A DNA stretch of 64,000 bases from a virus: positions 64,001 to 128,000 of IMG/VR virus record IMGVR_UViG_3300045988_171725; one strand, 5' to 3'. Below the pieces are notes generated by a model, which worked only from the letters and a program-made list of their open reading frames with translations, ran no database searches and was not told the origin of the DNA. How positions within the stretch are numbered: the first letter of the stretch is position 1; each line of letters opens with the position of its first letter. Below, one piece after another: positions 3,272 through 35,851 of the stretch. Position numbers and translations under genes: made by a program.

Positions 3272-3326
3272 GATAAAACCCTCGTTTTATTACAAGGAGA
3301 AATTTTAGGATATTTTTTAGGTAAAA

Positions 3327-3373
3327 TTAGAGACTTCGCTACGCGCGAGGTCTCTAATTTACTATATTTTTTT
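3327..3373 (+). terminator. candidate intrinsic terminator after the fiber gene
   Basis: 8-bp stem TTAGAGAC/GTCTCTAA (3327-3334/3350-3357) around a GC-rich interior. The T-run 3367-3373 sits about 10 nt downstream, which is far. Confidence 0.3.
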
Positions 3374-3415
3374 GGAATTTGGGAAATAAAAAAACAACAA
3401 GGAGGCACGGAATTT

Positions 3416-3910
3416 ATGGATATAAAACAGACGTTGATACAGGCGTTGAAAAAAGATGTAAAAATAGACTTAGAACGGAAATTAGAAAAAGTGCGAATTC
3501 CGTGCATGAATTATTTGAAAGAAAACGCTCTAAGGATTTTTAAAGAGAAAATAACAGAAGTTTATAAAATAAACTCTGATAGAATACAAGTAATAGATTT
3601 ACCACTGTTTTTAAAAGCAGTAAAAATTATAGATAGAGGCTCATGGGGATTTACTATAAAAACAGAAGAAGACGAATTAGATTTTAAAACAAAATCAGGT
3701 GAGCCGATTTATCAATATACAGACGCTGGACGTTCTTATGTCGACGGGATGGGTAAAGAAGTTCATAATTTAGATGAATATTGGCATTCGCCGATAAATG
3801 GAAGACGTGAATATGAATATTATAAAAATGAAGCTATAAACGATATACAGGATTTTATAAATACTAAATTTATTTTATATGTTCAGAATAAATTAAACGG
3901 AGGTAAGTGA
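3416..3910 (+). CDS. hypothetical protein just upstream of the tape measure gene
   Basis: AAGGAGG RBS plus ATG. The stop abuts the TMP start. No motif recognised. Confidence 0.5.
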   Translation: MDIKQTLIQALKKDVKIDLERKLEKVRIPCMNYLKENALRIFKEKITEVYKINSDRIQVIDLPLFLKAVKIIDRGSWGFTIKTEEDELDFKTKSGEPIYQYTDAGRSYVDGMGKEVHNLDEYWHSPINGRREYEYYKNEAINDIQDFINTKFILYVQNKLNGGK

Positions 3911-3911
3911 T

Positions 3912-6900
3912 ATGGATTTTAATAAAAACATAGGTGATATAGTTTATCATAAAAATTTTGGAAAGGGAAAAGTTACTAAAATTGACAGAGATGGTGACAG
4001 TTTGTCGATTGAGGTTTCTTTTGAAGAAGCTGGAAAACGTAAATCTTCAGGATTAGGTGTTATACCAAAAACTGCGCAATTTAGAGGCGTTGATTTTCAA
4101 TCTTTTTTTTCAGATACAAAAGCCAAAACAAAATCTTTATCGGGAGAAATAAGTAAAAATCGTGTAGTTGATACAACGTCTTATAAAGGTTATAGTTTTG
4201 AAAAATTACCAGAAAGTGATTTAAAGGCAATTCAGGAAGCCGTGAGAACTGGCGTTATAAAAGGCGTAGAAGATTTAAAAAAAATGTTACCAGCGGGCAG
4301 AACTATACCTTTGGAATATTTAAAATTATTAGAGGGTAAAAGCCCGACTGGCGAAAGATTACATGAGTATCAGGAAAGTGGCAAAACCGCAGAATTATAT
4401 AAAGATATTTTTAAGGGTATAAAAACAATAAGTATAACGCAGGGTAGTAAAATTCTTTTTGGTGATGATTATGCGGACGAGAATCAACTTAATAAATATC
4501 AAGAAGAAATCAACAAAAAAATTGCCGAAGTTAATAAAAAAATAGAAAGTGCTGATATAAAAACAAGAGCGATTTTAAATGATCGAAAAGCAGAGTTAGA
4601 AGAATCTAATAGAGAGTTACAGCGGCAAAGAAAACAAGCAAAAGATCAATATTCTGCTAAAGGTGGCACAGTCTTTCATAGCTTTGTCGAGATGTTGGCA
4701 CTTAATAAACTCCCGAAACTTAAAGAGGCTCTTTATTCTGGGGATAAAGAGCTCGCAGAGAATTTAATCAGAAATTACTTTTCAAAAGGTGCCACCGCCC
4801 AAACTTTAATAAAAGATAGCTCGACTAATTTTTCGGAATCGGATTCTGAAATTTTAGATGAATTTTTAAGTAAAATTAAAGATTTTGTTAATGTTGGTGG
4901 CGGAAGCGGCAGCTTCGCAACTGGTTTACAAAATTATGTAAACTTTTTAAAAGATAATAACATCACTTTAACCGATGCTGTTGAAAAAAGTATTGGCTTT
5001 GTCACGAACATCAATGATGAGTTGGTTAAATTTGTCGGAACGGTAGATGCGCTGTTCAGCGGATATCTTTTAGATCTAAAAACTGGTTCTATGCACCCAA
5101 ATGCAATTGCTTGGCAAGTTAATATGGGCAATTTCATACAGACAATGCTTGGCGGAGAGCCTGCGAAACATTTAGGGGCTTTCAACCCTGGCATGTATGG
5201 TAAAAGGGCAGGATATTTACCAGTTGAACAAATACCGTTGGAAACAATGAAAAAACTTATTGTTCAGGCGGCTATGGGAGAAAGAACCGACATTGATTTA
5301 ACCAAGTATGTAAAAGGAAGCGTTAGCACAGGCGTTGTAAAAAGAAGAGGCGAAGAGAAACAAGCTACCTTTATTAATAGTAAAGAAATGTATACTGGTG
5401 GTTACGGAGCAGAAAAACCAGAGTTACAAAAAGACATAGACAAACTAAATCGCGAAGCTAAAGAATTAGTCGAAAGCATAAAAACACTAAAAGGCGACGA
5501 TCTTGAACATATTTTAAATCAGATATATAGCACTAAAGATTATTCGCAAGGCGGAATTGAAAGTAATAAGTTTTATCGTCATGGATATTTCTGGGATCTC
5601 GTTCGCAGTATGTTGCCGTATGATATTTCTACTGTTTTAAATTATGCGATGAACGAGGGTGCAGCAATCCCTGCTACTAAGGGCGTTGGAACAAAAACAT
5701 ATAGAATAGAACAAGGCGAAGACGAACCGATTGCTGAAATAGATGTTCCAACTGTTTTAGGTATAAGTTTAAAGCAGTGGGCAAAATTGGCCAACATACT
5801 GTCTGAACTTCCTGATGGCGCAAATAAGGTGAAAAGACTTGCCGAATTGTTTGAAAAAGAATTCAAAAGTTTTAGTGTAGATGAACAAAGAAAAGTATTA
5901 TCCTCGTTCGAAACATTAATGACTCGAGAAGAAAATTTTAATCCAGAATATATTAAATTAAAAAAGCAGCAGGAATTATTGCGTGCAAAAATTCAAAAGC
6001 CTGAATCCTTTGGTGATGTAAATGTAGAAGAACTTCAGAAGGAATTAGATAAAACAAATGAAATTGTTTCTGAAATGGAAAAGTCTGGCGAATTGAATTT
6101 TTATCAAAATTTTGAAACCGCTTGGACAGACGTTGCCGATGAAATATCATGGAATAACCGCGAACTTCTGCAAGAGAGTATGACGGATTTTAAATCTGTG
6201 AAAATAGCAAGTGAAGATGCGAGACGTGGCGATAGGGAATATATGCCAGATGTTTTCGACTTAGAAACCGATCAAGATGGGCAACGTTATTATTCTGCGA
6301 GTGAATTCGAGACAGACCCAATTAAAAGCGCGACAATGACGGCGAACAGATTAGGACGAATTTTAGATTATTCTGCAAGAATTGATAAAGCGATAGAGCC
6401 GATGGCGCAAGAAATGGGAGTTTCGGTGGTTGATTTGGCAAAAACATTATTGCGAGATTTTGCCGAACAGACTGGAAGTTCCGATTCGTTTAATCGTTAT
6501 ATTAGAAGTAAAGAGTTGGCGGAAGACTTTAAAAAGCAATTCCCAAGTTTCGAAGGCAAAATCACAAAAGATGTAAGTAATTGGATTTATGACCGTTTAG
6601 ATTCCACTATCAAAGAAGAGCGCGAAGCTTTACTTGGAGTGACTGAAAGTCAAGAAGCGGGCGAAGTCACAACTTATAAAATCGGACCAAGCGGGGAGAT
6701 GTTAGATAAACATGCAACAAAGCCTTATGCGTTATTGCAAAATATATTAGGTAGAAGACTTTATTCTACTCTTTATAAATCTACAGATTCTATTCCGATA
6801 GAAGTGCTCGATGATTTAATTAAAGGTAAATCTTTAGAGTTGACGGAAAGAGTGGGGGCGGATTTGCCAGCCTCGTCAGATCACTCGAAAGAAGCCGTAA

Positions 6901-9499
6901 AAAAACGCGAAGCGCAAATAAGAAAAATAGATGAAGAGGCTGAAGAGAGAGAGAAAAGTTGGGTTGAGCAGTTTTTAAATTACGACGAACTCTTACCCGA
7001 AGCTCAAGAGCTTTTACAAAACTATATCAACACTTATAAAGAATATAAGGCAGCCGAAAAAGAACTATCCTTTTATGGTGGCGAAAACACACCAGAACAA
7101 AAATTCGAGGAATCTGATTGGAGTTATAAAGAAAGGTTAAAAGATTGGGAAAAGGTAAAAAGAAACTTCGATGAAAAAAAGAAGCAGATGGAAGAGGTTA
7201 ATGAAAACATAAAAAAGACGTTCCCATCTGGTAGAGTCGAGGGTTATAGTTCTGAAAAAATGTCGGAATTCTTAAAAAGGCGCGCAGAAGAAGGCATTGA
7301 GCAACAAAGACAAAAAAATATCGGATATGCTGCATTGTATTCTTATAGGTTCTCTGATAAAAAGAAGGCCGAACTTACACCCGAAGAAATTAATGAATAT
7401 TTGGATTACTATTCTGAACAATTTGGAATGACCACCGATGAGTTGTTGAATCTTTATAGACAAGAAAATGTTTATATGGGATTCAACGACTTTTTAAAGA
7501 AAATTGCTCAAGGACAAGATAAACGCCTGGTTTATTTTTCACCAAAAAAAATTAAAGCAGCAACAATAAAAGGCGCAGCCGATGGTGTTACTCGGGGTGT
7601 TACTAATACGGTAGAAAATATAGATCAGAAAAGCGTTGAAGAGAATGTTGCTAAAGCCGTATCGGATTCCATAAATATTGGCGAGGTTGAACCCAAAGAA
7701 GCAAGGAAGATATTACGAGATCCTGAGACCAACACACCAATAAATTCTGACGGAACGATAAACGAAGAACAGTGGTTAAAAGAACTAGATGAGAGCTTAC
7801 AGCGTTATCCAGTAGAACTTGAAAATGAATATTTTAAAAGGTTATTCAAAGATTCGCCTGATGATTATGTCCGTTTTGAAAAAGAGGTTAAAAGAACGAA
7901 GAAAGATGGAAGAAGAAACAGAACAGATCTGCGTAAATTTTTCAAGAGTGGAAATTGTGGCGACTTTGACTACAAAGATCTTCAACACGATCTCTATAAC
8001 ATAGAAATGCGAGAGGAACTTCCAGACTATTTAAAAACAAAGGAAGAGATATCCGAAGAAGAACATGGTGTCGTAATCGAAGGTGAAAATAAGGATACAC
8101 AAAAAGAGCTCATTCAAACAACAAAAGAAGAAGTTCAAGTTAAAAAACAAGGAATCGAACAAGAAAAACAAATCCAAGAAGTTCTCGATGACAAAACAAA
8201 GGAAACCAAGAAAAATGTTGATGTCGTTGAAGAAACTGGACGAGTTGAAAAACAGAACCTTGAATTAGAAAAGCAAGTACAAGAAGCAAAAAAAAAGAAA
8301 GTTACTGCAGAAAAAGATGTCAACACCTCTTTGTCGTCCAAAACTTCGATGATACCCGATAATATTTTAAAGGTGCAAGCGACAAGTGCTGACATTTCAG
8401 ATTTATCTAGAACTAAAGCAACTTCGATTACAACTGATTACGAAGGTCACACAATTGGCAAAACTTATAAATATCTTAATGATAAGGTTTTTGCTGATTA
8501 TGGTTCTGGTGGTCTTCAGGCGTGGATCGAGAATGCTAAACAGATTGGTATTGATGCAGCTAAAGCCGAATTGATAGGGATTTTGACTAAAGTTCCATCG
8601 TATAAGAAATCATCTGGCGGTTTGAGTAAAGCTGGAAGAACTGCGTTTGATGAAATAATGACCGATGCTTTTGGCGCTTCATATCAACCGCAACAAGGAC
8701 TTGGAGCCATATTATCCGAAGTCCAAGGTATTCATAAAGATACGTCTTCGATAGATGCGAAGATGGATTATTTGTCTGGCGGCGGAGGTGGCGCCCCATC
8801 TAATAAAATGGAAGTTTCATCTGACGGTGGTGCTGGAGGCGGAGATGAAGGTGGTAAAAAACCACCGAAATCTGGCGGTAGAAAAGGCAAGAGCGATGAA
8901 GAGAAGGCACAAGCGGATACTGAAAAACGGCAGAAACAAGATATAAGGGAATATCAACAGTATATTAACAGAGTTATAAGCCTTGAATCTCAGATTGATA
9001 AGCTTCAAAGGCAAGCAACATTAAGCGGCGGTAAACACAAAGATGCTATTTATGGAACAATTGACGCGCTTAATGAAGAGCTTGGGGATCTCAATCGTAA
9101 TAACGACGCGCTCAAACAAAGGGTTGCGACCGAACAAGCAGCAACAAAAGAATCGATCGACGCAACAGCAGCTCTTAGGAAACAATCAAATGCGCAAAAG
9201 AATCTTGTAAGCGTAAAAGGCGCGACCTCTATCTGGGATATGATGGCGAACGATATTCGCCGTGCGACCATGCGTGTTGCAGACTTCGGAATTGCTGCGA
9301 AGATTTTGAACAAGATCCCGCAGGATATACAGAAGGTAATCCAGTATACGAAAGAATTGGACGCGGCGATGACGAATATTCGTGTCGTCACGGGTGCTAC
9401 GGCGGAAGAGGCTCAAACGCTCGCACAAGGATATACACAACTTGCAAAAGAATTGGGGATAACCACTGTCGAAGTTGCTAATTCGGCAAACGAGTGGGT
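3912..9499 (+). CDS. tail tape measure protein, exon 1 (about 1863 codons)
   Basis: Long coiled-coil/charged ORF. Its end (...AMTNIRVVTGATAEEAQTLAQGYTQLAKELGITTVEVANSANEWV) is the start of the TP901/TIGR01760-type TMP core. The listed ORF runs only about 10 more codons (NKCLAHYKLL) into intron sequence. Exon end is accurate to about +/-2 nt. Confidence 0.8.
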
Positions 9500-10673
9500 T
9501 AACAAATGTCTGGCTCACTATAAACTCCTTTAATTGCTGGAACCCCCTTAGAGCCATATAACTACAACATAACGATGAAATAGGCGTAAGTGTGATAGTT
9601 AAAAATATATGGATTGGGAAATCAGCAGCCAAACCTCGAACAGAGGAAGGTTCAACGAATATGTTCCACGAGTGTGGATAATGGGGAGCTCTACATAGAG
9701 AAATCTATGCGAAAGATATATTCTGAACTTCTGAGGAAACTCAGAGAAAATTCTATAAAAGGAGGTGAAATATTTGTGATAATAGAAAGTGAAGTTAAAA
9801 TGGTTATAAATCAATATAATTTTGATTATTATAAAAATCTTGGTTACGATATTCAAAAATGTGGACAACGAATTTTTGTAAAAGTTTCTGATTTACCAAA
9901 AACATCTGGGACAAAAATCCATACGATATGTGAATATTGTGGAGAAATAGTAGAAAAATCATACCGAAGGTATATAGAATCTATCGAATGTGGGAAAAAC
10001 TGTTGTTCAAAATGTTTGAAATACAAAATTCCTGAAAATGCTTTAGAAAAATACGGATGTCGTTCTACTTTAAGAATTCCAGAAATTCATGAATCGGTAA
10101 CTAAAAATAATCTTAAGAAGTATGGTTGTGAAAACCCTCTTGAATCAGCAGAAATTAGGGCTAAAGGTGTTCAGACTATGCAGAGTCGTTATGGTTGTAG
10201 TTATACCCTTCAAAGTGATGAATTACGTGAAAAGTGTAATCGGACATTATATGAAAATGGGAACGATATAACTGCGACAAGCAGACAACAAAGATATTTG
10301 TGTGATTTATACAAAGGAGAATTGAATTATCCTATTTGGATTTATCACATAGACATTTTGTTGTCGGACAACATATGTTGCGAATATGATGGAAGCGGTC
10401 ACGATCTTAGTGTTAAATTAGGTAATGAAACAAGAGAAAACTTTATTAGAAAAGAAAATAAAAGAATAACCTTTTTAACAAACCACAATTATAAGTTATT
10501 TAAAATACTTTCTAACACAGATATTTTGCCTAGTGATGAGATACTTTTAAACATAAAGAAACGGGCTTTTGAAATATTAAAAGTCCGAAATTATATGTAT
10601 TATGAGTACAATTTAGACACAAATATAGAATCTTTTAAATGATAAACTAAATTTAAAAGTAACACAATTACAG
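9500..10673 (+). mobile_element. group I intron 1 in the TMP gene (HEG located 3' of the catalytic core)
   Basis: P1 pairs AGTGGGTT 9493-9500 with GGCTCACT 9512-9519 and has terminal U-G pairs. Classical core elements are present: P AATTGCTGGAACCC 9532-9545, Q AATCAGCAGCC 9620-9630, R GTTCAACGAATATG 9650-9663, S AAGATATATTC 9713-9723 (P7 is GAATAT/ATATTC). The last base, G10673, restores the frame. Confidence 0.75.
9776..10642 (+). CDS. intron-encoded homing endonuclease candidate (Cys-rich N-terminus, KYGC...EI repeats, PD-(D/E)xK-like C-terminus)
   Basis: GGAGGTG 9761-9767 precedes GTG 9776 (alternative start ATG 9800). The part of the listed ORF upstream of this point overlaps the ribozyme core. 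The C-terminal IDILLSDNICCEYDGSGHD resembles the D...E-x-D/QH nuclease core of the ORFs at 15547 and 40006. Confidence 0.6.
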   Translation: MIIESEVKMVINQYNFDYYKNLGYDIQKCGQRIFVKVSDLPKTSGTKIHTICEYCGEIVEKSYRRYIESIECGKNCCSKCLKYKIPENALEKYGCRSTLRIPEIHESVTKNNLKKYGCENPLESAEIRAKGVQTMQSRYGCSYTLQSDELREKCNRTLYENGNDITATSRQQRYLCDLYKGELNYPIWIYHIDILLSDNICCEYDGSGHDLSVKLGNETRENFIRKENKRITFLTNHNYKLFKILSNTDILPSDEILLNIKKRAFEILKVRNYMYYEYNLDTNIESFK

Positions 10674-11250
10674 ACAAGGTTACGCAGGGGAAGAAGCCAA
10701 TCAATTGATTGTCGCTTCCTCGAAACTCGCTAAACTCGGTATGATTTCGACCACTGAGGCAACTAAAGATTTGACGAGCGCGATAAAAGGCTTTAAACTT
10801 TCGACAGAAGACGCGATGTCGGTTGTCGATAAATTGACAAAAATAGACCAAGTGGCTGCAATTTCCGCAGGAAATTTAGCGGAAGGTCTCGCGCGAGTCT
10901 CCACTACCGCTCAACAAGCAGGGCTTTCGCTCGACGAAACCGCCGCAATGGTAACTACGATTACCGAAGTTACGCAGCGTGACGCAAGCACGGCGGGTGA
11001 GGCGCTCAGAACTCTTATTTCGAGATACTCTAACGTTAAAGCGGGCGTATTCACGGATATGAGCGATAGCGCCGAAGAGACTTCGGGTAATATTAACGAT
11101 ATCGAAAAAGTATTGGGTAAGTTAGGGATTAGAATTCGTACTTCTGGAACTGAAATGAGAAGTATCGAAGATGTCCTTGACGAATTGGCTGAAAAGTGGG
11201 ATACACTTGATGATGTAAGTCGTAATGCAGTTGCGAGTGCTTTTGCTGGT
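10674..11250 (+). CDS. tail tape measure protein, exon 2 (TMP core)
   Basis: QGYAGEEANQLIVASSKLAKLGMISTTEATKDLTSAIKGFKL...STAGEALRTLISRY...NAVASAFAG is the hallmark TIGR01760 / PhageMin_Tail region. It has no start codon or RBS of its own. Exon start is accurate to about +/-2 nt. Confidence 0.8.
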
Positions 11251-12688
11251 AGGATGACGTATGCCAGAAATTATGGAAACATAATTTGTTAAGCACTATA
11301 AATAAATAACAAGGAAGATTGCTATATCGGTGAAGTTCTGGGGACAGATAATACCGAGGAAAGATTAAATATTAATAGTGAATAAGTAAATAACAAGGAG
11401 GTGATTTTCATGAAATGGGAGCAGTGGCAGATAGATTATCTTAAAGAAAATTGGGATAAATATTTAGATAAAGATTTGATGAAATATTTGGGCGTTAGCC
11501 CAGATTGTTTCTATGCTAAAAAGCGAGAATTAGGGTGCCTCCGATTCAAATGGACAGAGGAAAAGATAGAATTGTTAAAGAAGTATTATCCGATCGCTTC
11601 TTGGGAAGAGCTATTTCAAATTTTAGGTTGTAATAAAAGATCTTCGATAACTTCTATGGCTCACTTAAATGGTATAAGCCGAGATGTTTATAATAACAAC
11701 AAATTATCAAACTCCGACAAAGAATTTGTCAAAAACAACCACATGAATATGTCTGTTCATGAAATGTCTGACGTTATTGGTAAAAGAGCTGAATATATAT
11801 CAAACTATGCACGTAATAATCATATAAGAGTTTATTTTGGGCACGAGATAAGACCGTGGGACGAAGAATTATTCATTGAATTATATCCAAAATATACAAA
11901 CAAATATTTACATGAAAAATATTTTCCGTATTTAAGTAGGGCACAATTGCGTTCGCAAGCTAAAAAATATGGATTGGTTAAAAATAAAGAGAAAAGTGTT
12001 AAATGGTTTGATAAAGAGCAACTTTTAGAAGATTTAGAAAAGGCTACAAGAGAGCTGGGAAGAGTCCCTTTGTTAATCGAGTTTCAATCGCTCGGCTTAC
12101 CAACTGAAGCGACATACAGAAGATATTTTGGGTCTGTAACGAAAGCATTTGAGCTTATAGGAATAAAAAGACCATGCTATGTTCATGGTCAATGCCATAA
12201 GTTAATGGTATATAGAGATAAAAATGATAATTTTTGTCTATCTATGTCGGAAGTAATTATAAGTAACATTCTAATAGATTTCGGCATAACATTTGAAAAA
12301 GAAGTCCCTTATAAAAATTTTGTTGACGACGAGGATATTGGCGAAAAGATTAGCGATTGGAAGATTGGTAATAAAATAATCGAATATTTTGGAATGGTAG
12401 ATTATAAAGATTATAATGATGGTATGAATTTAAAAATCGAAATTTGCAAAAGACACAATATTTCATTATTAGCATTATATCCTGAAGATCAAAAAGATAT
12501 CGATAAGATGAAACAAAAGATAAAAGAATTTATTAATATTTAAAATCCGTAGAGACTATACGCAGTCAACCGTATAAGGTTAAGATATAGTCCGACCTGC
12601 ACGTATAATCCAATTAAAAAGAAGGTGCAGAAATAGCCAGAAATGGTTATTCGCCTGTATTATTACAGGTATGAAAAGTAACAAAAAG
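11251..12688 (+). mobile_element. group I intron 2 in the TMP gene (HEG located 5' of Q-R-S)
   Basis: P1 pairs CTGGT 11246-11250 with GCCAG 11263-11267, giving a U11250-G wobble at the splice site. Q AATCCGTAG 12544-12552, R AGAGACTATACG 12551-12562, S AAGATATAGTCC 12582-12593 (P7 is GACTATA/TATAGTC). The intron ends in G12688 and is in frame. Confidence 0.8.
11410..12543 (+). CDS. intron-encoded DNA-binding/endonuclease-type protein (repeated Myb/SANT-like helices plus a homing-endonuclease-associated-repeat-like segment)
   Basis: AAGGAGG then ATG 11410. There are four W/F-x-EE...L...YP-type repeats. LLEDLEKATRELGRVPLLIEFQSLGLPTEATYRRYFGSVTKAFELIGI resembles the repeat found in HNH-type homing enzymes. 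No catalytic motif was identified. Confidence 0.5.
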   Translation: MKWEQWQIDYLKENWDKYLDKDLMKYLGVSPDCFYAKKRELGCLRFKWTEEKIELLKKYYPIASWEELFQILGCNKRSSITSMAHLNGISRDVYNNNKLSNSDKEFVKNNHMNMSVHEMSDVIGKRAEYISNYARNNHIRVYFGHEIRPWDEELFIELYPKYTNKYLHEKYFPYLSRAQLRSQAKKYGLVKNKEKSVKWFDKEQLLEDLEKATRELGRVPLLIEFQSLGLPTEATYRRYFGSVTKAFELIGIKRPCYVHGQCHKLMVYRDKNDNFCLSMSEVIISNILIDFGITFEKEVPYKNFVDDEDIGEKISDWKIGNKIIEYFGMVDYKDYNDGMNLKIEICKRHNISLLALYPEDQKDIDKMKQKIKEFINI

Positions 12689-15421
12689 GTACGTCAACGT
12701 GAATCATTCAATATATTATTAAGCAACTGGGATCGTGTAAAGGAACTCACTGAAGAATCCGCTAACGCCGCAGGAACTGCCGACGAGAAGTATTCCGCTT
12801 ATATGGACTCCATGGAGGCGGCGACGAAGCGGCTTCAAAACGCGTGGGAAGGATTTACTCAATCGCTTGAAACAAGCACGGTAATGAAATTCCTCACGAA
12901 TTCAGTCGCGCTTTTGGTCGAGAATGCCGACAAACTCAAATATATAATAACCGTGTTTGCAGCTGCGAGTTCAGCAAAAATTTTTGACTTCTTTACCAGC
13001 AAAGGCGAAACAGGCGGGTTTAAAGGTTTAATCGCCAACATCCCGTTTATAGGCAGAGGAACGAAAACTAACAATATACTCGAAAGTATTGACAAAAAAG
13101 TCGGAGATATTCGAGGAGAGGTTCAGAAAGACAAAAGTGGAATTACTAAAAATGGTAGTCTAATTAGTAAGATTGGGCAATACGCAGCCGATAAACGTAC
13201 TGTAGGAAAAGATCGTAAGTTTATAAAAGATTATGAAAGTGGTAAATTCGATTCTGTAACTGATCCATCAATACAAAACGCTTATTATAAAAGATATTTG
13301 GGTGCCAAACAAAATTTATCATCAGATGATAACGAAGCGTTAAAGCGTTTGCTGGATGCGAAAGCTGCGAGAATGACCGCATTCGCTCAAACAGCAGCCG
13401 TCTCTGGAATTGCTACCTTAGCAACTCAATTAATGACAACGAAGCAAGTTTCTGGTTACGGCCAAACCGTTGAAGAAACTGGTGGTGACAAAGCGTTAAG
13501 AACTGGGCTTGCCACTGCTGGCTCAGTAGCTGGTGCGGCAACCGCCCTTATCCCCGTTATAGGACCTATGATAGCTCCAATCGTTTCTTCTTTGGGCTCA
13601 ATTGCTGGCGAAGGTTTGGCTGGATTAATAGCTAAATGGGCTCATAAAGACGAGCTTCAAATGAAGCAGCGTGTTGCCGAAGCCAAAGAAAATCTTTCTG
13701 CACTTGGCGATATAAAAACCGCTATCGAAAATAACGAGGATTTATTGAACAAAGACTCCTATACATCTAAAGATTACGAAAAGTTAAAATTATACGCCGA
13801 TTCTTTAAGAGAAAAATTCGCTAATAATGAAGATTTAGCTAAATTGTTTTTAGCCGATGTTCATAATCTTGATATTGGAACATTTACGACAATTGAAGAC
13901 GTTCTCTCTCAAATTACTAAGGGGAATGTCGATATCAATAAGCAACTTAAGAGGCAATTAGAGCTCACGACTGCCAGATTAACGGTAGAGAGCACCCTCG
14001 GCAAACAGGAAGAAGATAGAAAAAAAATACAAGAATACGTTGGTAAAAAATATGAATCGGATCGATCTGGTGTAAAAGCAAATTATTTATTTAAAGATCC
14101 AAATGATACATATTATACACGTAGTAATTTATTGGATTTTTATACAAGAGAAGATATTGCTAACCTTCTAAACACTGCAACTTATACTACTAATGGTGTT
14201 ACCTATCAAGGCAAAACATATAGTGGACCTGAAAAAATAGACTATATTCAAATAAAAGGAAACGATATAGAAGAAGTTCTTCAAAATGCGCAAAAAATCC
14301 TTGAAGAGGTAAGAAAAGGTTATTCTGAAACAAATAAAAATCTTGTATCTGAATGGGAAACAATTGTAAATAATTTATCAAAACAATTAGATAACCAGAA
14401 AAAATTAAATGCAAAACTTTTATCTACCCAAGTTGATTATGCTTATTTAACGTCCGATATTTTAAACACTAAGTCTCGTGATGAAATACGTGATCTTGGT
14501 ATGGAAGGCGTTGTTAAGATAATTCGTGACGAACTAATTTCGCAAGGTGTTGGTGTGGTTGATGAGAATGGAGTAATTCATCAAGACGCTTATGATGCCA
14601 TCGTTAAAAAAATACGTTCCGACTCGACTTTGAGTGATTATATAACGAAAGATATTCGCTCGATTGGGGATCTTATTTCTAAAGACGATATACAAGGTAT
14701 TGAATCGTTTGCAAGAGCGTTTGGTTTAACAACCGAGGCGGCGAAAGAGCTTGGTAAGCAGTTCGGATATTTAACTCAATCAATGGGTTTGATGAACGTT
14801 CAAGAGACGACGGAATACTATGAGAAACTGAGTACGGTATTTTCAAATTTAAGTTCGAATGTCGCTTTGACCGCAGGACAGATCAACAGTCTTTTGACGA
14901 CCTCTGAACTCAAAGATTTGCTTCCGTATTTGATGAATCAAGACGACCCTGACGCTTTGATAAAGGAACTTTATAAGAGAATTTACGGCGGCGGGCAGGA
15001 TGTCCATATGGAGAACGCGCTTTATGACGCGACCATGGGAATGTCGACCGATAAATTCAGAGAATACTTGCAAAACAAAGGGTTAAAAGAATATGTTGCT
15101 GAAATCGACAAAGGCGGGTATACCACCTTATCTCAAATTAGAGATGCAGTTAAAGAATTTGATGAGACAGACCCGAGACGCCAAGAGTTTTTGGAATATC
15201 TTGAAACGATAAATTATACTTACTCCAAAGACTTAACAGCTTTAGAGAAGCCGTCTAAGTATATTAAATCTCAACTCGAAGAGCAAATAAATAATCTCCA
15301 AGAGCAAAAAGATGCTTTGTCTCAAATTAATGACGAGAGAGAAAAAGAACTCAATCTAATTAAAGCGAAACAAGCGCTCGAAGACGCTCGGAAAGAAAAG
15401 AGAAGGGTTTATAGACAGGGT
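12689..15421 (+). CDS. tail tape measure protein, exon 3 (911 codons)
   Basis: Begins VRQRESFNILLSNWDRV..., which continues the TMP core after ...SAFAG. It has hydrophobic Gly/Ala-rich segments and a long coiled coil, and ends ...KEKRRVYRQG. Confidence 0.8.
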
Positions 15422-16660
15422 AAACAAATATGCCCTTAAGTAACTATATCGGTTAAAACCTAGAAGTAGGTAAGACCGAGGTAAGATAAATTTTAAAATG
15501 TTAATATGCAATAAAATATAAATAAATTAAAAAAGGAGGTGATGACATGGAAAATAATATTAAAGAAGATTTGATAGCGTTAACCAACGAACAGGCAAAG
15601 AAGATTAATGCTGAAATTATTGAAAGATTTACGGGGAAAGACGGTAAGGCAAAGTTAAAAATACGCTCTTTATCATATCCCGAAAAAGGAGTAAGGGTCG
15701 TTGATCGATATAATTTCTTGCACTCCACTGCCCAATATAGATATTTTAACGCCGTGACTTGTAAAAATGATTTATTGAGACATGAAGAAATAACATCTAG
15801 AATTGATATAATTGGAGATTATATCAACACTGCGACAAAAATTTTATGCAAATGTAAAATTTGTAGCAATGAATGGATGGTAACTCCAAACAAATTATTA
15901 CAAGGTCGTGGATGCCCTAAGTGTGCTTCACAAAAAGCACATCGGGCTTACTCTAAATCACATGAAGAATTTATAAATGAATTAAAAAACGTCAACCCTT
16001 CTATCATGATACTTGATGAATATTATAATAATCGCACTAAAATAAGATACAAGTGTAATATTTGTAATAAAGTATCTATGTCTACTCCTTGTAAATTATT
16101 AAACGGGGAGAGCGGGTGCCATTTTTGTAAAAGCTCGATCGGTGAACAGAAGATATTCTGTTTTTTATTTGCCCACAAAGTACCATTTGAGAGAGAAAAA
16201 TATTTTGAAGATTGTAAAGATAAAGGGAAATTACCTTTTGACTTTTATTTATCTGATTATAATATTTGTATTGAATTTCAAGGTGAACAACATTTCCGTC
16301 CAGTAGACTTTTCATATACTCCAACTGAGGAATCGAAAAATAAAGCCGTTGAAAAATTTAAAGGTATTCAGAAGCGTGATAAAATAAAAGCAGAATATTG
16401 TAAACAGAATGGAATACGTCTTTTAATTATTGATTATAAACAAATAAAAAATATAGAAAGCATATTAACAAAAGAATTAAATTTATCAACCGTAACGACT
16501 GCAGGATCTTTGTGGTAACATAAAGATTGAAGTTACTTCAATATGTTTTAGACATATTGTAATATACAGTCTGAACTCGTAATATAACGAAATGAAATAC
16601 GAGAGTAAGGATTAACGTCCTTGCCGCCACATTTATTGTGGTCATAAAAGTAACAGATTG
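15422..16660 (+). mobile_element. group I intron 3 in the TMP gene (HEG located 5' of R-S)
   Basis: P1 pairs AGGGT 15417-15421 with GCCCT 15432-15436, giving a U15421-G wobble. R ...CAACCGTAACGACTGCAGG 16488-16505 overlaps the HEG stop. S AATATACAGTCTGAAC 16561-16576 (P7 is GACTG/CAGTC). The intron ends in G16660 and is in frame. Confidence 0.8.
15547..16518 (+). CDS. intron-encoded homing endonuclease candidate (2 zinc ribbons plus PD-(D/E)xK-like nuclease)
   Basis: AAGGAGGTG RBS. Contains two CxxC...W..P..LL.G.GCP.C ribbons. The C-terminal GEQKIFCFL...LPFDFYLSDYNICIEFQGEQHF is nearly the same module as the C-terminus of ORF 40006..41595. Confidence 0.65.
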   Translation: MENNIKEDLIALTNEQAKKINAEIIERFTGKDGKAKLKIRSLSYPEKGVRVVDRYNFLHSTAQYRYFNAVTCKNDLLRHEEITSRIDIIGDYINTATKILCKCKICSNEWMVTPNKLLQGRGCPKCASQKAHRAYSKSHEEFINELKNVNPSIMILDEYYNNRTKIRYKCNICNKVSMSTPCKLLNGESGCHFCKSSIGEQKIFCFLFAHKVPFEREKYFEDCKDKGKLPFDFYLSDYNICIEFQGEQHFRPVDFSYTPTEESKNKAVEKFKGIQKRDKIKAEYCKQNGIRLLIIDYKQIKNIESILTKELNLSTVTTAGSLW

Positions 16661-17638
16661 ATTGGCTTCGTTATGGAAAGCAATGAGGAAGCAATTGCCG
16701 AAGCGCAAAAAAATCTCGAAAACTTAAATACTCAAAAACGCCAAGAAAATCTTCAGACGCAGATCGACACGCTTCAGATGCAGAAAGACATTATCGAAGC
16801 TCTTCCAAATCAGGCTCAACTTGAACAAACCAAAAAGATTTGGGAATTGTGGGCAGCGGATAAGGGAACGAAAGGAAGTCTTGCTTCCGTAACCGAAGGC
16901 GTAACGATGTTGGCGGATGCTTATACAAATGCCACAAATCGGATGAATATGCGTGCTAAAACAGAAGGGGTTCTAAATACACCTGATGAAAAGAGCAGTA
17001 TGCAGACATCTGATGAAAATACTAACCCCGTTATCACCCTTAGTGAAACTCAAATAGAATATACCAAAGCCTTAGTTTCTAACGTGGATGATATTAGAAA
17101 TATCTTATTAGGGAAACATACTAAAAACTTCCAAAATATGTTGGATTTCGTGAACAAAAACAACATGTTACAAGGCGATTATGCACGGTGGGGAGAAATG
17201 TTCAGAGCTGCTGGTATATTAAACGAATGGAATTCTTTGTCTGACAAAGAGAAAGAAGCTATTAGAAGCCAAGCAAATACGAGAGCGGGTGGAGACATTT
17301 CCTTCCAAGGCGGTAAAGCTCTTATCAACGAACTTGGAACCGAAGCGGTCATCACACCTGGCGGCACGCTCACCGCGCTTCCTTCGAAGACGGGTATCGT
17401 CCCTGCGGACATAACCCGAAACGTTTGGGCGCTCGGGGAAGTTGCTCCGACGTTGGTCGCACAGCTCGGTTCGCTTACGCAAAAGACGCTTTCTGGCAAC
17501 GCTGGAAACACGACCTACGAAGAGGGTCAATACTTCGACAACTTTACGATGAACGTTTACCCCGCAAAAGGCGACGACTTGAGCAAGATCCTGGAGCAAG
17601 CACGTGCACAAATGCGGCTTACGCGTCATAATAATTAA
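16661..17638 (+). CDS. tail tape measure protein, exon 4 (C-terminal 325 aa)
   Basis: IGFVMESNEEAIAEAQ... follows ...RVYRQG. It has no RBS of its own, and the ORF track only finds a TTG start. Confidence 0.75.
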   Translation: MGFVMESNEEAIAEAQKNLENLNTQKRQENLQTQIDTLQMQKDIIEALPNQAQLEQTKKIWELWAADKGTKGSLASVTEGVTMLADAYTNATNRMNMRAKTEGVLNTPDEKSSMQTSDENTNPVITLSETQIEYTKALVSNVDDIRNILLGKHTKNFQNMLDFVNKNNMLQGDYARWGEMFRAAGILNEWNSLSDKEKEAIRSQANTRAGGDISFQGGKALINELGTEAVITPGGTLTALPSKTGIVPADITRNVWALGEVAPTLVAQLGSLTQKTLSGNAGNTTYEEGQYFDNFTMNVYPAKGDDLSKILEQARAQMRLTRHNN

Positions 17639-31559: not shown

Positions 31560-32681
31560 ATGGTGGAATTTATTTTAGGTTTAATTGCTATTGCAATTGG
31601 TGTTATTGTTGGAACAGTTCTTAAGAGATACTCTATTGTGGAAACTGTAAATAACTCGGATAATGAAAGAGTTAAGGTTAAGACCAATCCTCTTAAGAAA
31701 TATGCAGTCATTCCTATTGCAGCTGGAATTGTTTTAGGGTGTATTGGTACATTCTGTGGTAGTGTTGTGTCGGTAACTACAGGTAATACTGGTGTTGTAT
31801 CTACTTTCGGTAAAGTTGAAAACTATACTCTTGAGTCAGGATTCCATTTTAAAGCTCCTTGGAATACTGTAACAGAGATGGATAATAGAGTTCAGAAGCA
31901 GACTATTGAAATGAAATGCTTTAGCTCTGATATTCAGGAAGTTAGTATGAAATATACTCTTAACTATCAAATTGATCGTGCTAATGCTCAGGAAATTTAT
32001 AGAACTATAGGTAAGGATTATTATTCAACTATTATTGAACCTAATATTACTGAGGCTGTAAAAGTTGCTTCTGCTCAGTATACTGCAGAAAAGCTGGTTC
32101 AAACTAGAAGTGAATTAGCAGATGATATTGAAAAACTATTGAGAGAAAATCTTAATAAATATCATATTAATGTAAGTTCAACTGCTATTGAGGATATGGA
32201 TTTTACGGATGCTTTCACTAATGCAGTAGAAGCAAAGCAGGTTGCAGAACAGAAGAAGAAACAAGCAGAAATTGAACAGTCTCAGCAACTTGCTCAAGCT
32301 GAAAATGATAAGAAAATTGCTGAAACAAAAGCTAAAGCTGAAGCAGAGGTAGCAAAGATTAAAGCAGAAGCAGATATGGAAGTAGCTAAGATTGAAGCTG
32401 ATACAGCTGAATATGCAGGTCAGAAAAATGCAGCTATTGCACTTCAAGGACTTGCCTCTACAAATGGGTGGACAGTTGTAACTTATAAAAATCCTGATGG
32501 TGCTTCTATCAATAAGCTTCTTAAATCTGATGGTGAAGTTGTAACTCAAACTGAACTTGAAATTGGCGTTAAGAATTATCTTGAAAAACTTAAAAATGAT
32601 AAATGGGATGGTAAGTTGCCTGTTTATTATCTTGGATCTGATGGAAGTATTACAACTGTAATTCCTACACCTGGCAATTAA
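31560..32681 (+). CDS. SPFH/Band-7 (prohibitin/HflC-like) membrane protein
   Basis: N-terminal TM helix, then GNTGVVSTFGKVENYTLESGFHFKAPWNTV..., followed by an Ala/Glu/Lys coiled coil (AEQKKKQAEIEQSQQLAQAENDKKIAETKAKAEAE). Confidence 0.8.
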   Translation: MVEFILGLIAIAIGVIVGTVLKRYSIVETVNNSDNERVKVKTNPLKKYAVIPIAAGIVLGCIGTFCGSVVSVTTGNTGVVSTFGKVENYTLESGFHFKAPWNTVTEMDNRVQKQTIEMKCFSSDIQEVSMKYTLNYQIDRANAQEIYRTIGKDYYSTIIEPNITEAVKVASAQYTAEKLVQTRSELADDIEKLLRENLNKYHINVSSTAIEDMDFTDAFTNAVEAKQVAEQKKKQAEIEQSQQLAQAENDKKIAETKAKAEAEVAKIKAEADMEVAKIEADTAEYAGQKNAAIALQGLASTNGWTVVTYKNPDGASINKLLKSDGEVVTQTELEIGVKNYLEKLKNDKWDGKLPVYYLGSDGSITTVIPTPGN

Positions 32682-35819: not shown

Positions 35820-35851
35820 TAAAATTGCAGTTTTATCGAGTGGAGGTTGAA

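What the first reader, a model, noticed from the sequence alone, without database searches (positions are those of the whole stretch)
3912..17638. Tape-measure gene split into four exons by three group I-type introns, each with its own endonuclease ORF
Four same-strand ORFs (3912..9533, 10705..11292, 12671..15439, 16658..17638) together spell one tape-measure protein.
- Exon 1 ends ...ELGITTVEVANSANEWV.
- Exon 2 is the TP901/TIGR01760-type core (...SSKLAKLGMISTTEATKDLTSAIKGFKL...NAVASAFAG).
- Exon 3 continues VRQRESFNILLSNW... and ends ...RRVYRQG.
- Exon 4 starts IGFVMESNEEAI.

Pieces 2-4 have no RBS or ATG of their own. Each piece reads only 6-11 junk codons past the break before a stop.

At all three breaks the last exon bases pair with a guide sequence 10-12 nt inside the insert, and the helix ends in a U-G wobble at the predicted 5' splice site:
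- 9493-9500 with 9512-9519
- 11246-11250 with 11263-11267
- 15417-15421 with 15432-15436

Each insert ends in G at a position that restores the frame. Each carries R/S-type P7 elements such as AAGATATAGTCC. Each hosts a separate RBS-led ORF.

Multiple introns in one phage gene are known but rare. I do not know of a tape measure gene carrying three.
Basis: partly seen in the sequence, partly recalled or inferred. Interest (0 to 1): 0.8.

Follow-up and report, generated by a model that had tools for sequence, protein, structure and literature searches.

The report
Tape-measure gene with three self-splicing introns
A phage tail-length (tape measure) gene is interrupted by three mobile group I introns, each carrying its own homing-endonuclease gene; this is real and well supported, but it is another example of a known phenomenon rather than a new kind of element.

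Summary
Four + strand ORFs (3912-9533, 10705-11292, 12671-15439, 16658-17638) join into one stop-free 3,291-aa TP901-type tape measure protein (TMP).

All three inserts are group I introns:
- Intron 1 (9500-10673) matches Rfam RF00028 full length, at 51.7 bits against a cut-off of 50.
- Introns 2 (11251-12688) and 3 (15422-16660) carry their endonuclease ORF inside the P6 loop, so RF00028 finds nothing in them.
- Both belong to families of compact ORF-less phage introns with strong covariation. For the intron-3 family, 33 of 56 pairs show compensatory changes and 98.6% of cells are paired.
- A relative carries the intron-2 ribozyme with the ORF naturally missing.

Junctions 2 and 3 are exactly colinear with uninterrupted homologues. 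Relatives carry zero to three of these introns at the same sites. Some have swapped endonucleases, and one has a different ribozyme at site 2.

One point is open. At junction 1 the canonical U-G / terminal-G splice (9499|10674) gives EWVQGY. Every uninterrupted homologue reads EWxRQGY.

Group I introns at three TMP sites (Bacillus cereus-group prophages) and three-intron phage genes (Twort orf142) are already published. I class this as a new member of a known kind, of moderate interest.

The parts
3912..9499 (+). TMP exon 1 (about 1,862 codons; ends ...ANSANEWV). The mechanical ORF reads on to the stop at 9533.
   Evidence: The last ~40 residues match PF10145 positions 2-40 only when joined to exon 2. 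Residues 7-43 hit PF21196, the PcrA/UvrD tudor domain.
9500..10673 (+). Intron 1 (1,174 nt under the canonical model), group I. P1 9493-9499/9513-9519; P3 9525-9530/9683-9688; P4 9534-9540/9622-9628; P6 9634-9646; R 9650-9662; P7.1 9666-9677; P8 9694-9709; S 9713-9725; P9 9730-9745. The ORF sits in the P9.1 loop. The tail is GTAACACAATTACAG, 10659-10673. The 3' end could instead be 10670 (keeps the Arg codon).
   Evidence: RF00028 hit at 9490-9746, 51.7 bits, E 1.5e-12, model 1-253. P1 compensatory changes. P7 covariation. ORF-less alleles in L145 and L149.
9776..10642 (+). Endonuclease ORF 1 (288 aa, GTG start after AAAGGAGGTGA), DUF7487 type.
   Evidence: PF24308, E 7e-13. phrog_12131 'homing endonuclease', E 2.5e-38. 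The same 288-aa gene is called in relatives L003, L011 and L161.
10674..11250 (+). TMP exon 2 (192 codons), core of the TP901/PhageMin_Tail domain. Ends ...NAVASAFAG.
   Evidence: PF10145, E 1e-25. Colinear with uninterrupted homologues.
11251..12688 (+). Intron 2 (1,438 nt), group I. P1 11246-11250/11263-11267; P10 11256-11262 with 12689-12695; P3 11318-11322/12562-12566; P4 11327-11331/11353-11357; P5 11337-11348; P6 11363-11375/12533-12547 enclosing the ORF; R 12549-12560; P8 12568-12581; S 12582-12593; P9 12597-12630; P9.1 12633-12650; P9.2 12654-12669. Terminal G at 12688.
   Evidence: Sequence and coordinates. Natural ORF-less allele in L145, RF00028 31.2 bits, E 4.6e-4. nhmmer E 3.2e-17 for 12544-12656. 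In the family alignment 19 of 31 pairs are compensatory.
11410..12543 (+). Endonuclease ORF 2 (377 aa from ATG 11410; the mechanical ORF starts at GTG 11401, inside the GGAGGTG).
   Evidence: PF18780 'homing endonuclease associated repeat', E 9.5e-11. phrog_22655. Absent from the otherwise identical intron in L145.
12689..15421 (+). TMP exon 3 (911 codons). Begins VRQRESFNILLSNW and ends ...RRVYRQG.
   Evidence: P0016 is the identical gene call, on a 145-kb contig.
15422..16660 (+). Intron 3 (1,239 nt), group I. P1 15417-15421/15432-15436; P3 15438-15444/16532-16538; P4 15449-15453/15475-15479; P5 15459-15470; P6 15485-15493/16479-16487 enclosing the ORF; R 16492-16501 (inside the ORF's last codons); P7.1 16506-16527; P8 16539-16559; S 16562-16573; P9 16576-16603; P9.1 16605-16624; P9.2 16627-16641. 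Terminal G at 16660.
   Evidence: Sequence and coordinates. Alignment A2: RNAalifold recovers the helices de novo. 98.6% of cells paired, 33 of 56 pairs compensatory, 0 of 500 shuffles reach this, slid controls 32-36%. The family tail consensus GTAACAG-NNN-G fits.
15547..16518 (+). Endonuclease ORF 3 (323 aa), with CapR/DUF4379 zinc-ribbon modules and a C-terminal nuclease-like region.
   Evidence: PF21817 and PF14311. phrog_559, phrog_9084 and phrog_7140, annotated endonuclease / homing endonuclease / intron-encoded nuclease; best E 3e-59. In L161 and L163 a LAGLIDADG ORF replaces it in the same ribozyme.
16661..17638 (+). TMP exon 4 (325 codons plus stop). Begins IGFVMESNEEAI.

Best explanation
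Bases 3912-17638 encode one very long (about 3,291 aa) TP901-family tail tape measure protein of an uncultured phage. The phage resembles large Firmicute siphoviruses and is about 145 kb.

**What interrupts the gene.** Three mobile group I introns of the phage IA type interrupt the coding sequence. After transcription each intron folds into a ribozyme.
1. An external guanosine bound in P7 attacks the U-G-marked 5' splice site in P1.
2. The freed 5' exon then attacks behind the intron's terminal G.
3. The four exons are ligated in frame.

**What each intron carries.** Each intron holds a Shine-Dalgarno-led endonuclease gene in a peripheral loop: P9.1 for intron 1, P6 for introns 2 and 3. The endonuclease cuts intron-less alleles in co-infecting relatives, and repair copies the intron in (homing). 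This explains the patchy distribution of zero to three introns at the same three sites in the clade.

**Shown here**
- The reading-frame logic and colinearity at junctions 2 and 3.
- Rfam membership of intron 1.
- Covariation-supported folds for all three ribozyme families.
- Presence/absence polymorphism, ORF-less derivatives and endonuclease swaps.

**Inferred**
- Actual splicing.
- Endonuclease activity.
- The exact 3' splice site of intron 1. My best guess is 10673|10674. That gives EWVQGY and drops one conserved Arg.
For: **Frame and gene identity**
- The conceptual splice gives one 3,291-aa ORF.
- PF10145 2-201 and TIGR01760 8-301 span the junctions.
- Cultured-phage TMPs (Enterococcus, Lactococcus, SPbeta-like phages) match across junctions 1 and 2 in one piece.
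- Junctions 2 and 3 are gap-free against 13-14 uninterrupted homologues.

**Intron 1**
- RF00028 at 51.7 bits, with a gathering score of 50.
- Relatives in other genes score 82.6 and 71.8 bits.
- P1 has two compensatory pairs: G-C to C-G at 9498/9514 and at 9494/9518.
- P7 covaries: GAATAT/ATATTC against GACTAT/ATAGTC and GAGCAT/GTGCTC.

**Intron 2**
- A natural ORF-less allele exists in L145, with RF00028 E 4.6e-4.
- The 3' half matches the family profile at nhmmer E 3.2e-17.
- A 7-bp P10 lies contiguous with P1.
- The family alignment has 19 of 31 compensatory pairs.

**Intron 3**
- 33 of 56 pairs are compensatory and 98.6% of cells are paired. Controls are far lower.

**Mobility**
- Of the 120 best homologous gene calls, 86 start just after site 1, 28 start at site 2 and 9 end at site 3. 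Only 4 are uninterrupted.
- Closely related intron-less alleles exist (L002, L144).
- Site 3 carries the same ribozyme with a LAGLIDADG ORF in L161 and L163.
- Site 2 carries a different ribozyme in L007.

**Other**
- The endonuclease ORFs hit homing-endonuclease families and have GGAGG sites. Exon pieces 2-4 have none.
- Introns are 30-31% G+C against 37-46% for the exons.
Against: - There are no RNA data, so splicing is inferred.
- RF00028 gives no hit in introns 2 and 3 as they stand. It does not hit compact intron-3-type relatives either. Their group I assignment therefore rests on architecture, covariation and relatedness to RF00028-scoring introns.
- At junction 1 the canonical splice is one residue short of all uninterrupted homologues. 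It scores 7.8 bits (PF10145) and 10.4 bits (TIGR01760) lower than the Arg-containing join.
- No nuclease fold could be assigned. There are no PDB sequence relatives, and single-sequence AlphaFold models were unusable, with pLDDT 34-35.
Confidence: 0.9

Rival explanations
1. The ribozyme biology is the same, but intron 1 uses a non-canonical 3' splice site three bases upstream (9499|10671). The intron then ends in A, not G. The Arg codon AGA is kept and the product reads EWVRQGY. Alternatively both sites are used, giving two isoforms.
For: - Every uninterrupted homologue reads W-x-R-Q-G-Y.
- Intron-less alleles have exactly ...AGACAAGGTTA(C/T), for example L144 at 97% identity, L006 and L007.
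- 10671-10676 (CAGACA) pairs with 9507-9512 (TGTCTG), a 6-bp P10-like helix contiguous with P1. The variants seen keep the pairing: C10671T in L148, C9510T in L145, and A9506T in L011, which extends the helix.
- The Arg-containing join scores +7.8 and +10.4 bits.
- A natural group I intron without the canonical terminal G has been reported in the Coxiella 23S rRNA gene. I could read only the title, from the reference list of PMC3428280.
Against: - The terminal G is near-universal, and the G-binding G-C pair of P7 is intact in this intron.
- The CA before G10673 can form P9.0 with the UG that follows P7.
- The GTAACA-N8-G spacing equals that of the L018 intron.
- The tail ACAATTACAG is shared with the 3' exons of related introns L016 and L018, and the similarity stops exactly after G10673.
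- A junction-peptide search found nothing spanning the site.
Confidence: 0.3
2. The inserts are free-standing homing-endonuclease cassettes that have truly split the tape measure gene into four separately translated proteins. No splicing occurs.
For: - Gene callers annotate the pieces separately in all relatives.
- Piece 3 has an in-frame ATG at 12671.
- RF00028 gives no hit in inserts 2 and 3.
Against: - Conserved ribozyme cores with compensatory changes flank each ORF.
- ORF-less versions keep the ribozyme precisely.
- The P1 guide sequences co-vary with the exon.
- Pieces 2-4 lack Shine-Dalgarno sites while the endonuclease ORFs have them.
- The Pfam and TIGRFAM domain is cut mid-domain at sites 1 and 2.
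Confidence: 0.04
3. The gene is a decaying pseudogene, or the arrangement is an assembly chimera.
For: The window comes from an uncultured source, and no record in the phage collection is similar at the nucleotide level.
Against: - The same intron-exon arrangements recur on many independent long contigs from different samples: L003, L004/L015/L164, L011-L013, L145, L161-L163.
- All exons are open and conserved at 40-100% identity.
Confidence: 0.02

Closest known systems
Group I introns TMP-IVS1, -IVS2 and -IVS3 in tape measure genes of Bacillus cereus-group prophages (Tourasse & Kolsto 2008, NAR 36:4529; PMC2504315)
   Same: - IA-type group I introns sit at three distinct sites of a TP901-type TMP gene.
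- Distribution among related (pro)phages is patchy.
- Related introns are adapted to different sites through P1.
- Different introns share one site.
- There are ORF-less, immobile copies.
- All of these patterns recur here.
   Different: - In that paper no single gene is described with more than two of the three sites occupied. Here all three are occupied and all three introns keep an intact endonuclease ORF.
- The host clade differs: uncultured gut phages of about 135-150 kb, with TMPs of 2,600-3,300 aa.
- I could not test whether the insertion sites are homologous, because the figures are not held.
Staphylococcus phage Twort orf142 (tail tube gene) with three self-splicing group I introns (Landthaler & Shub 1999, PNAS 96:7005; cited in PMC11878797)
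   Same: A phage virion-structure gene carries three group I introns. Exon skipping between similar introns was seen there.
   Different: - The gene is different (tail tube, not tape measure).
- From my own recollection, not checked here, the Twort orf142 introns are short and ORF-less. Here each intron carries an endonuclease gene.
- Splicing was shown experimentally for Twort and has not been shown here.
Multi-intron DNA polymerase and terminase genes of Bastillevirinae (NAR 2025, PMC11878797) and RNA polymerase genes of jumbo phages (for example AR9; Serratia phage 2050HW)
   Same: - Two or three endonuclease-bearing group I introns occur per gene.
- The intron-1 ribozyme is 79% identical over 106 nt to an unannotated stretch that splits the RNA polymerase beta gene of Serratia phage 2050HW. 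RF00028 scores that stretch at 82.6 bits.
   Different: Those hosts are DNA/RNA-metabolism genes. That paper asks why introns colonise mainly such genes. This case adds a structural gene that is heavily colonised across a whole clade.

Membership tests
Group I intron (Rfam RF00028) | Covariance-model match at or above the gathering score (50 bits) | tested here: inconclusive
   - Intron 1 meets it: 51.7 bits, full model. Wider scans missed this hit because of the filters.
- Intron 2 gives no hit in the window. Its natural ORF-less allele in L145 scores 31.2 bits, E 4.6e-4, below the cut-off.
- Intron 3 gives no hit, and its compact relatives are not hit either.
- Related CTATATCGGT-type introns score 31-75 bits.
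Group I intron | P1 helix between the 5' exon end and an internal guide sequence, with a U-G pair at the 5' splice site | tested here: met
   Present at all three sites. For intron 1 two P1 pairs change on both sides among relatives.
Group I intron | Conserved core P3-P8, including the P3/P7 pseudoknot, supported by covariation | tested here: met
   - Intron-3 family: 33 of 56 pairs compensatory, 98.6% paired, 0 of 500 shuffles reach this, slid controls 32-36%. P7 itself is invariant there, so it is uninformative.
- Intron-2 family: 19 of 31 pairs compensatory.
- Intron-1 family: P4, P5, P5a, P6 and a covarying P7.
Group I intron | Terminal G as the last intron base, at a position giving a colinear, in-frame product | tested here: inconclusive
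   - Met for intron 2 (G12688) and intron 3 (G16660), with gap-free colinearity.
- For intron 1, G10673 restores the frame but drops a conserved Arg. The colinear join would end in A or C.
Group I intron | GTP-dependent self-splicing | not testable with these tools
   Needs in vitro transcription and splicing, or RT-PCR.
Intron-encoded homing endonuclease | ORF in a peripheral loop with its own translation signals, related to known homing-endonuclease families | tested here: met
   - GGAGG sites lie 6-8 nt upstream of each start.
- ORF 1: phrog_12131, E 2.5e-38.
- ORF 3: phrog_559, phrog_9084 and phrog_7140.
- ORF 2: PF18780.
- The nuclease fold is unassigned.
Intron-encoded homing endonuclease | Presence/absence polymorphism of the element at the same site in otherwise related genes | tested here: met
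   ORF loss. ORF replacement.
TP901-family phage tail tape measure protein (TIGR01760 / PF10145) | Profile match above cut-off, in a tail gene neighbourhood | tested here: met
   - TIGR01760 at 116-127 bits (cut-off 28.8) and PF10145 at 105-112 bits (cut-off 33.2) on the spliced product.
- Neighbours hit minor-tail and tail PHROGs.
- Cultured-phage homologues are annotated as tape measure proteins.
Intein | In-frame insertion without stops, translated with the host protein | tested here: not met
   Each insert has a stop 5-13 codons after the break. No Hint or intein domains were found.
Group II intron | Domain V/VI RNA and a reverse-transcriptase ORF | tested here: not met
   No group II Rfam family was hit. 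The ORFs are not reverse transcriptases.

The most novel reading that the evidence does not exclude
Splicing may diversify the tape measure rather than merely restore it.

- Introns 2 and 3 belong to the same ribozyme family, share the ...AAAAGTAACA-N4-G tail, and both lie between codons. Exon skipping of the kind reported for Twort orf142 would join 11250 to 16661 in frame.
- That join removes the 911-aa exon 3 and gives a tape measure of about 2,380 aa. One gene would then specify a second tail length.
- Separately, intron 1 may use two in-frame 3' splice sites, 10670 and 10673. That would give isoforms with and without a conserved Arg, one of them through a non-G terminal nucleotide.
Probability: 0.08. 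Interest if true: 0.8.

Novelty: new member of a known kind. Interest (0 to 1): 0.4.

Why it matters
- **A colonised structural gene.** Across a whole clade of uncultured gut phages the tape measure gene is a hot spot for mobile group I introns. Site 1 is occupied in most relatives, and up to three endonuclease-bearing introns sit in one gene. Annotation pipelines report three to seven fragments instead of one TMP of 2,600-3,300 aa. That distorts protein clustering, tail-length estimates and gene counts for these phages.
- **A natural series of intron states.** The relatives include intact introns, ORF-less introns, the same ribozyme with a different endonuclease, and a different ribozyme at the same site. 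This series could be used to study the intron life cycle and how introns retarget to new sites.
- **Possible new enzymes.** The three endonucleases (DUF7487-type, HNH_repeat-type, CapR/DUF4379-type) have no solved relatives. They are candidate new site-specific nucleases.
- **A testable exception.** The conflict at junction 1 between ribozyme rules and protein colinearity is a small question about 3' splice-site choice that one experiment could settle.

Tried and rejected
- **Wide Rfam scans** (whole window at gathering; 9300-17000 at E<=10) found no group I intron. This was a filter effect, because a 321-nt scan found intron 1.
- **Narrow Rfam scans of introns 2 and 3** found nothing. The roughly 1-kb ORF sits inside P6.
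- **Rfam on compact intron-3-type relatives** did not hit them. I used covariation instead.
- **Megablast against the phage collection** gave only a 106-nt match.
- **A junction-1 peptide search of the protein collection** returned 3 partial hits, none spanning the junction.
- **PDB sequence searches** for the three endonucleases gave nothing below E 0.06.
- **A lenient Pfam scan** gave only a weak DUF2726 hint for ORF 3. BLASTP between the C-terminal parts of ORF 2 and ORF 3 gave E 0.044.
- **Single-sequence AlphaFold models** of ORF 3 and ORF 1 had pLDDT 34.7 and 33.9, so I ran no fold search.
- **Weak nhmmer hits at 36144 and 50650** were examined and rejected as coding-sequence coincidences.
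- **The DnaE region (36.8-41.6 kb)** was checked for an intron. The gene ends with its own stop, and the downstream CapR/DUF4379 ORF looks free-standing.
- **Apparent extra interruptions of TMPs in L197-L207** are single in-frame stop codons, probably recoded stops, not introns.
- **The promoter/terminator scan** of 9400-17000 gave nothing decisive.
- **One collection scan failed** and was repeated.

Full report
**1. The observation**

The ORF listing finds the four + strand ORFs exactly where stated, and three further ORFs in the gaps between them. Joining 3912-9499, 10674-11250, 12689-15421 and 16661-17638 gives 9,876 nt. This reads as one 3,291-aa ORF with no internal stop.

- The inserts are 30-31% G+C. 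The exons are 37-46%.
- Exon 2 alone matches only positions 41-201 of PF10145.
- The spliced product matches PF10145 2-201 and TIGR01760 8-301 as single stretches, so the domain is cut by inserts 1 and 2.
- The read-through tails are 10, 13 and 5 codons long.
- The inner ORFs have GGAGG sites 6-8 nt before GTG 9776, ATG 11410 and ATG 15547. Exon pieces 2-4 have none.

**2. Context**

- No record in the phage collection is similar at the nucleotide level.
- Protein-level relatives lie on 50-155 kb contigs, mostly from gut metagenomes.
- The nearest cultured homologues are at most 30% identical. They are TMPs of large Firmicute siphoviruses: Enterococcus VRE9/EF1, Lactococcus AM4/AM5 and SPbeta-like phages. 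They match across junctions 1 and 2 in one piece.
- Neighbouring genes hit minor-tail and tail PHROGs.

**3. Uninterrupted and differently interrupted relatives**

I mapped the 120 best homologous gene calls onto the spliced protein.

| Where the gene call starts or ends | Number |
|---|---|
| Starts at the first Met after junction 1 | 86 |
| Starts at junction 2 | 28 |
| Ends at junction 3 | 9 |
| Runs through all three sites | 4 |
| Bounded by junctions 2 and 3 (P0016, this phage) | 1 |

- L002, a Hadza gut contig, encodes an uninterrupted 2,636-aa TMP.
- Alignments at junctions 2 and 3 are gap-free...SAFAG|VRQRESF... and ...VYR(Q/A)G|(I/V)GF....
- L145 also has all three sites occupied. Its introns 1 and 2 lack their ORFs.

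**4. Intron 1**

A 321-nt Rfam scan gives a full-length RF00028 match at 9490-9746: 51.7 bits against a gathering score of 50, E 1.5e-12. Wider scans had missed it. The alignment shows P1-P9 upstream of the ORF, which sits in the P9.1 loop.

- A 26-nt P3-P5 motif is shared with introns in other phage genes. Two of these reach 82.6 and 71.8 bits. One splits the RNA polymerase beta gene of Serratia phage 2050HW.
- Copies at the same TMP site in diverged exon backgrounds show compensatory changes:
  - P1: AGTGGGT/GCTCACT against AGTGGCT/GGTCACT and ACTGGCT/GGTCAGT.
  - P3, P7, P8 and P9 also change on both sides.
- RNAalifold recovers P4, P5, P5a, P6 and a covarying P7 de novo.
- ORF-less copies exist in L145 (53.4 bits) and L149.

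**5. Intron 2**

The ORF sits in the P6 loop, and RF00028 finds nothing in the window. L145 carries the same ribozyme with the ORF precisely absent (297 nt). There RF00028 aligns end to end at 31.2 bits, E 4.6e-4.

- The motif CTATATCGGT-N(15-30)-ACCGAGG (P4-P5-P4') occurs in more than 119 viral contigs.
- 22 of these are compact ORF-less elements. Some score 31-75 bits on RF00028.
- A profile built from them hits 12544-12656 at E 3.2e-17. This 3' half is independent of the selecting 5' motif. The S element was, however, part of how I picked the compact set.
- RNAalifold on eight members, including the L145 allele, gives P3, P4, P5, P8 and P9.1, with 19 of 31 pairs compensatory.
- P1 (CTGGT/GCCAG) ends in a U-G pair.
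- A 7-bp P10 (11256-11262 with 12689-12695) lies contiguous with P1.
- The terminal G is 12688.

**6. Intron 3**

RF00028 does not hit it, nor its compact relatives. A second pattern, TAACGACTG...ATACAGTCTGAAC, found 36 viral loci. Several of them are compact ORF-less homologues ending ...GTAACAG-NNN-G.

I aligned the window intron, with the P6 loop trimmed, to the L161 allele and six compact members (alignment A2).

- RNAalifold predicts P3, P4, P5, P6, P7.1, P9, P9.1 and P9.2 de novo.
- With P7 added as a pseudoknot, 98.6% of cells pair and 33 of 56 pairs have changes on both sides. None of 500 shuffles reaches this, and slid controls give 32-36% pairing.
- P7 is invariant in this set, so it is uninformative.
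- The ORF's last codons overlap P6 3', J6/7, P7 5' and P7.1.
- In L161 and L163 the same ribozyme at the same site carries a LAGLIDADG ORF instead.
- In L007, site 2 is occupied by a ribozyme of the intron-1 type.

**7. Junction 1, the unresolved point**

Every uninterrupted homologue reads W-x-R-Q-G-Y. Intron-less alleles have ...TGG NNN AGA CAA GGT TA(C/T), for example L144 at 97% identity.

| Model | Join | Last intron base | Product | Support |
|---|---|---|---|---|
| (a) canonical | 9499\|10674 | G10673 | EWVQGY | Near-universal terminal-G rule |
| (b') | 9499\|10671 | A10670 | EWVRQGY | Colinearity; +7.8 and +10.4 bits |

*For (b').* A 6-bp helix, 9507-9512 with 10671-10676, lies contiguous with P1. 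The natural variants seen keep it paired.

*For (a).*
- The G-binding G-C pair of P7 is intact.
- The CA before G10673 can pair with the UG after P7 (P9.0).
- The GTAACA-N8-G spacing is the same as in L018.
- The tail ACAATTACAG is also found in the 3' exons of related introns L016 and L018, and the similarity stops exactly after G10673.

That last point suggests intron 1 reached this site by an ectopic move that carried a remnant of an old exon. This is inference. L016 itself obeys the canonical rules. Both L016 and the window intron begin with UAA, which places the 5' splice site after U9499.

My estimate is about 65% for (a) and about 30% for (b') or use of both sites. A natural intron lacking the canonical terminal G has been reported for Coxiella. 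I could read only the title, in the reference list of PMC3428280; the paper itself is not held.

**8. The endonucleases**

| ORF | Hits |
|---|---|
| ORF 1 | DUF7487; phrog_12131 'homing endonuclease', E 2.5e-38 |
| ORF 2 | PF18780 'homing endonuclease associated repeat' |
| ORF 3 | CapR/DUF4379 zinc ribbons; phrog_559, phrog_9084 and phrog_7140 |

No solved structure is related by sequence, and single-sequence AlphaFold models were unusable.

All three C-terminal regions contain an hhhE(Y/F)xG-type motif: CEYDGSGH, IIEYFG and CIEFQGEQH. From my own knowledge, this recalls Vsr-like / PD-(D/E)XK homing endonucleases. It is a lead, not a test.

**9. Comparison with what is known**

- Tourasse & Kolsto 2008 described IA1/IA2 group I introns at three sites (IVS1-3) of TMP genes in B. 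cereus-group prophages. Up to two sites are described as occupied per gene. They also saw related introns retargeted through P1, different introns at one site, and ORF-less copies (PMC2504315).
- Twort orf142, a tail tube gene, has three introns and shows exon skipping. Bastillevirinae polymerase and terminase genes have two or three introns (PMC11878797).
- The present case therefore adds a new host clade, three ORF-bearing introns in one TMP, and near-ubiquity of the site-1 intron. It does not add a new kind of element.

**10. Verdict**

It is a new member of a known kind. Interest is moderate at 0.4. What raises it slightly is the junction-1 anomaly, the possibility of in-frame exon-3 skipping between the two same-family introns, and three uncharacterised endonuclease types.

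Noticed in passing
window 60814-61869 and 62364-63883: A HEARO RNA (RF02033, 106 bits) at 60814-61014 is followed directly by a short IscB-like ORF (61042-61869, 275 aa, RRXRR + HNH). A second, 415-aa RRXRR + HNH ORF lies at 62450-63697. It is preceded by a partial tRNA-like hit (62364-62420) and followed by a tRNA (63810-63883). This looks like two IscB-type RNA-guided nuclease loci in a phage.
   Followed up: partly
window 35825-41595: A DnaE-type DNA polymerase III alpha gene (36810-40013) is flanked by an HNH_3 ORF (35825-36820) and by a 529-aa CapR/DUF4379 ORF (40006-41595). The latter shares the N-terminal modules of intron-3 ORF 3. These are probably free-standing homing endonucleases. 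No intron features were seen, and DnaE ends with its own stop.
   Followed up: partly
window 3930-4040 (TMP residues 7-43): The N-terminus of the tape measure protein hits the PcrA/UvrD tudor domain (PF21196, E 1e-5). The same hit is on record for relative L162. This is unexpected in a TMP.
   Followed up: no
L083 (IMGVR_UViG_3300037067_001909) 1173-5118; L050 105-1548: Intron density is extreme elsewhere. L083 has about nine RF00028 matches within 4 kb. L050 has three introns within 1.5 kb.
   Followed up: no
L197-L207 (IMG/VR contigs of 94-148 kb): In this sister group the TMP homologues are broken by single in-frame stop codons between consecutive same-frame ORFs. This suggests stop-codon recoding rather than introns.
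   Followed up: partly
L012 about 2600-2640, L013 (intron-1 variants): A variant of intron 1 carries a longer DUF7487 ORF. That ORF is preceded by a near-consensus sigma-70 promoter inside the intron (TTGACA-17 nt-TACAAT, with TG upstream). The endonuclease could therefore be transcribed on its own.
   Followed up: no
L016 and L020 (other phage TMP genes), L018 (helicase gene): Ribozymes of the intron-1 type sit at two further TMP positions...GRVANG|LSTITARL and ...NEIG|TESIV, and in a helicase Walker A motif, GKPG|FGKT. The 10-nt string ACAATTACAG recurs next to the 3' splice site in L016, L018 and the window.
   Followed up: partly
window 31560-32681 and 45650-46831: The phage encodes an SPFH/Band 7 protein and an adenylosuccinate synthetase homologue.
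   Followed up: no
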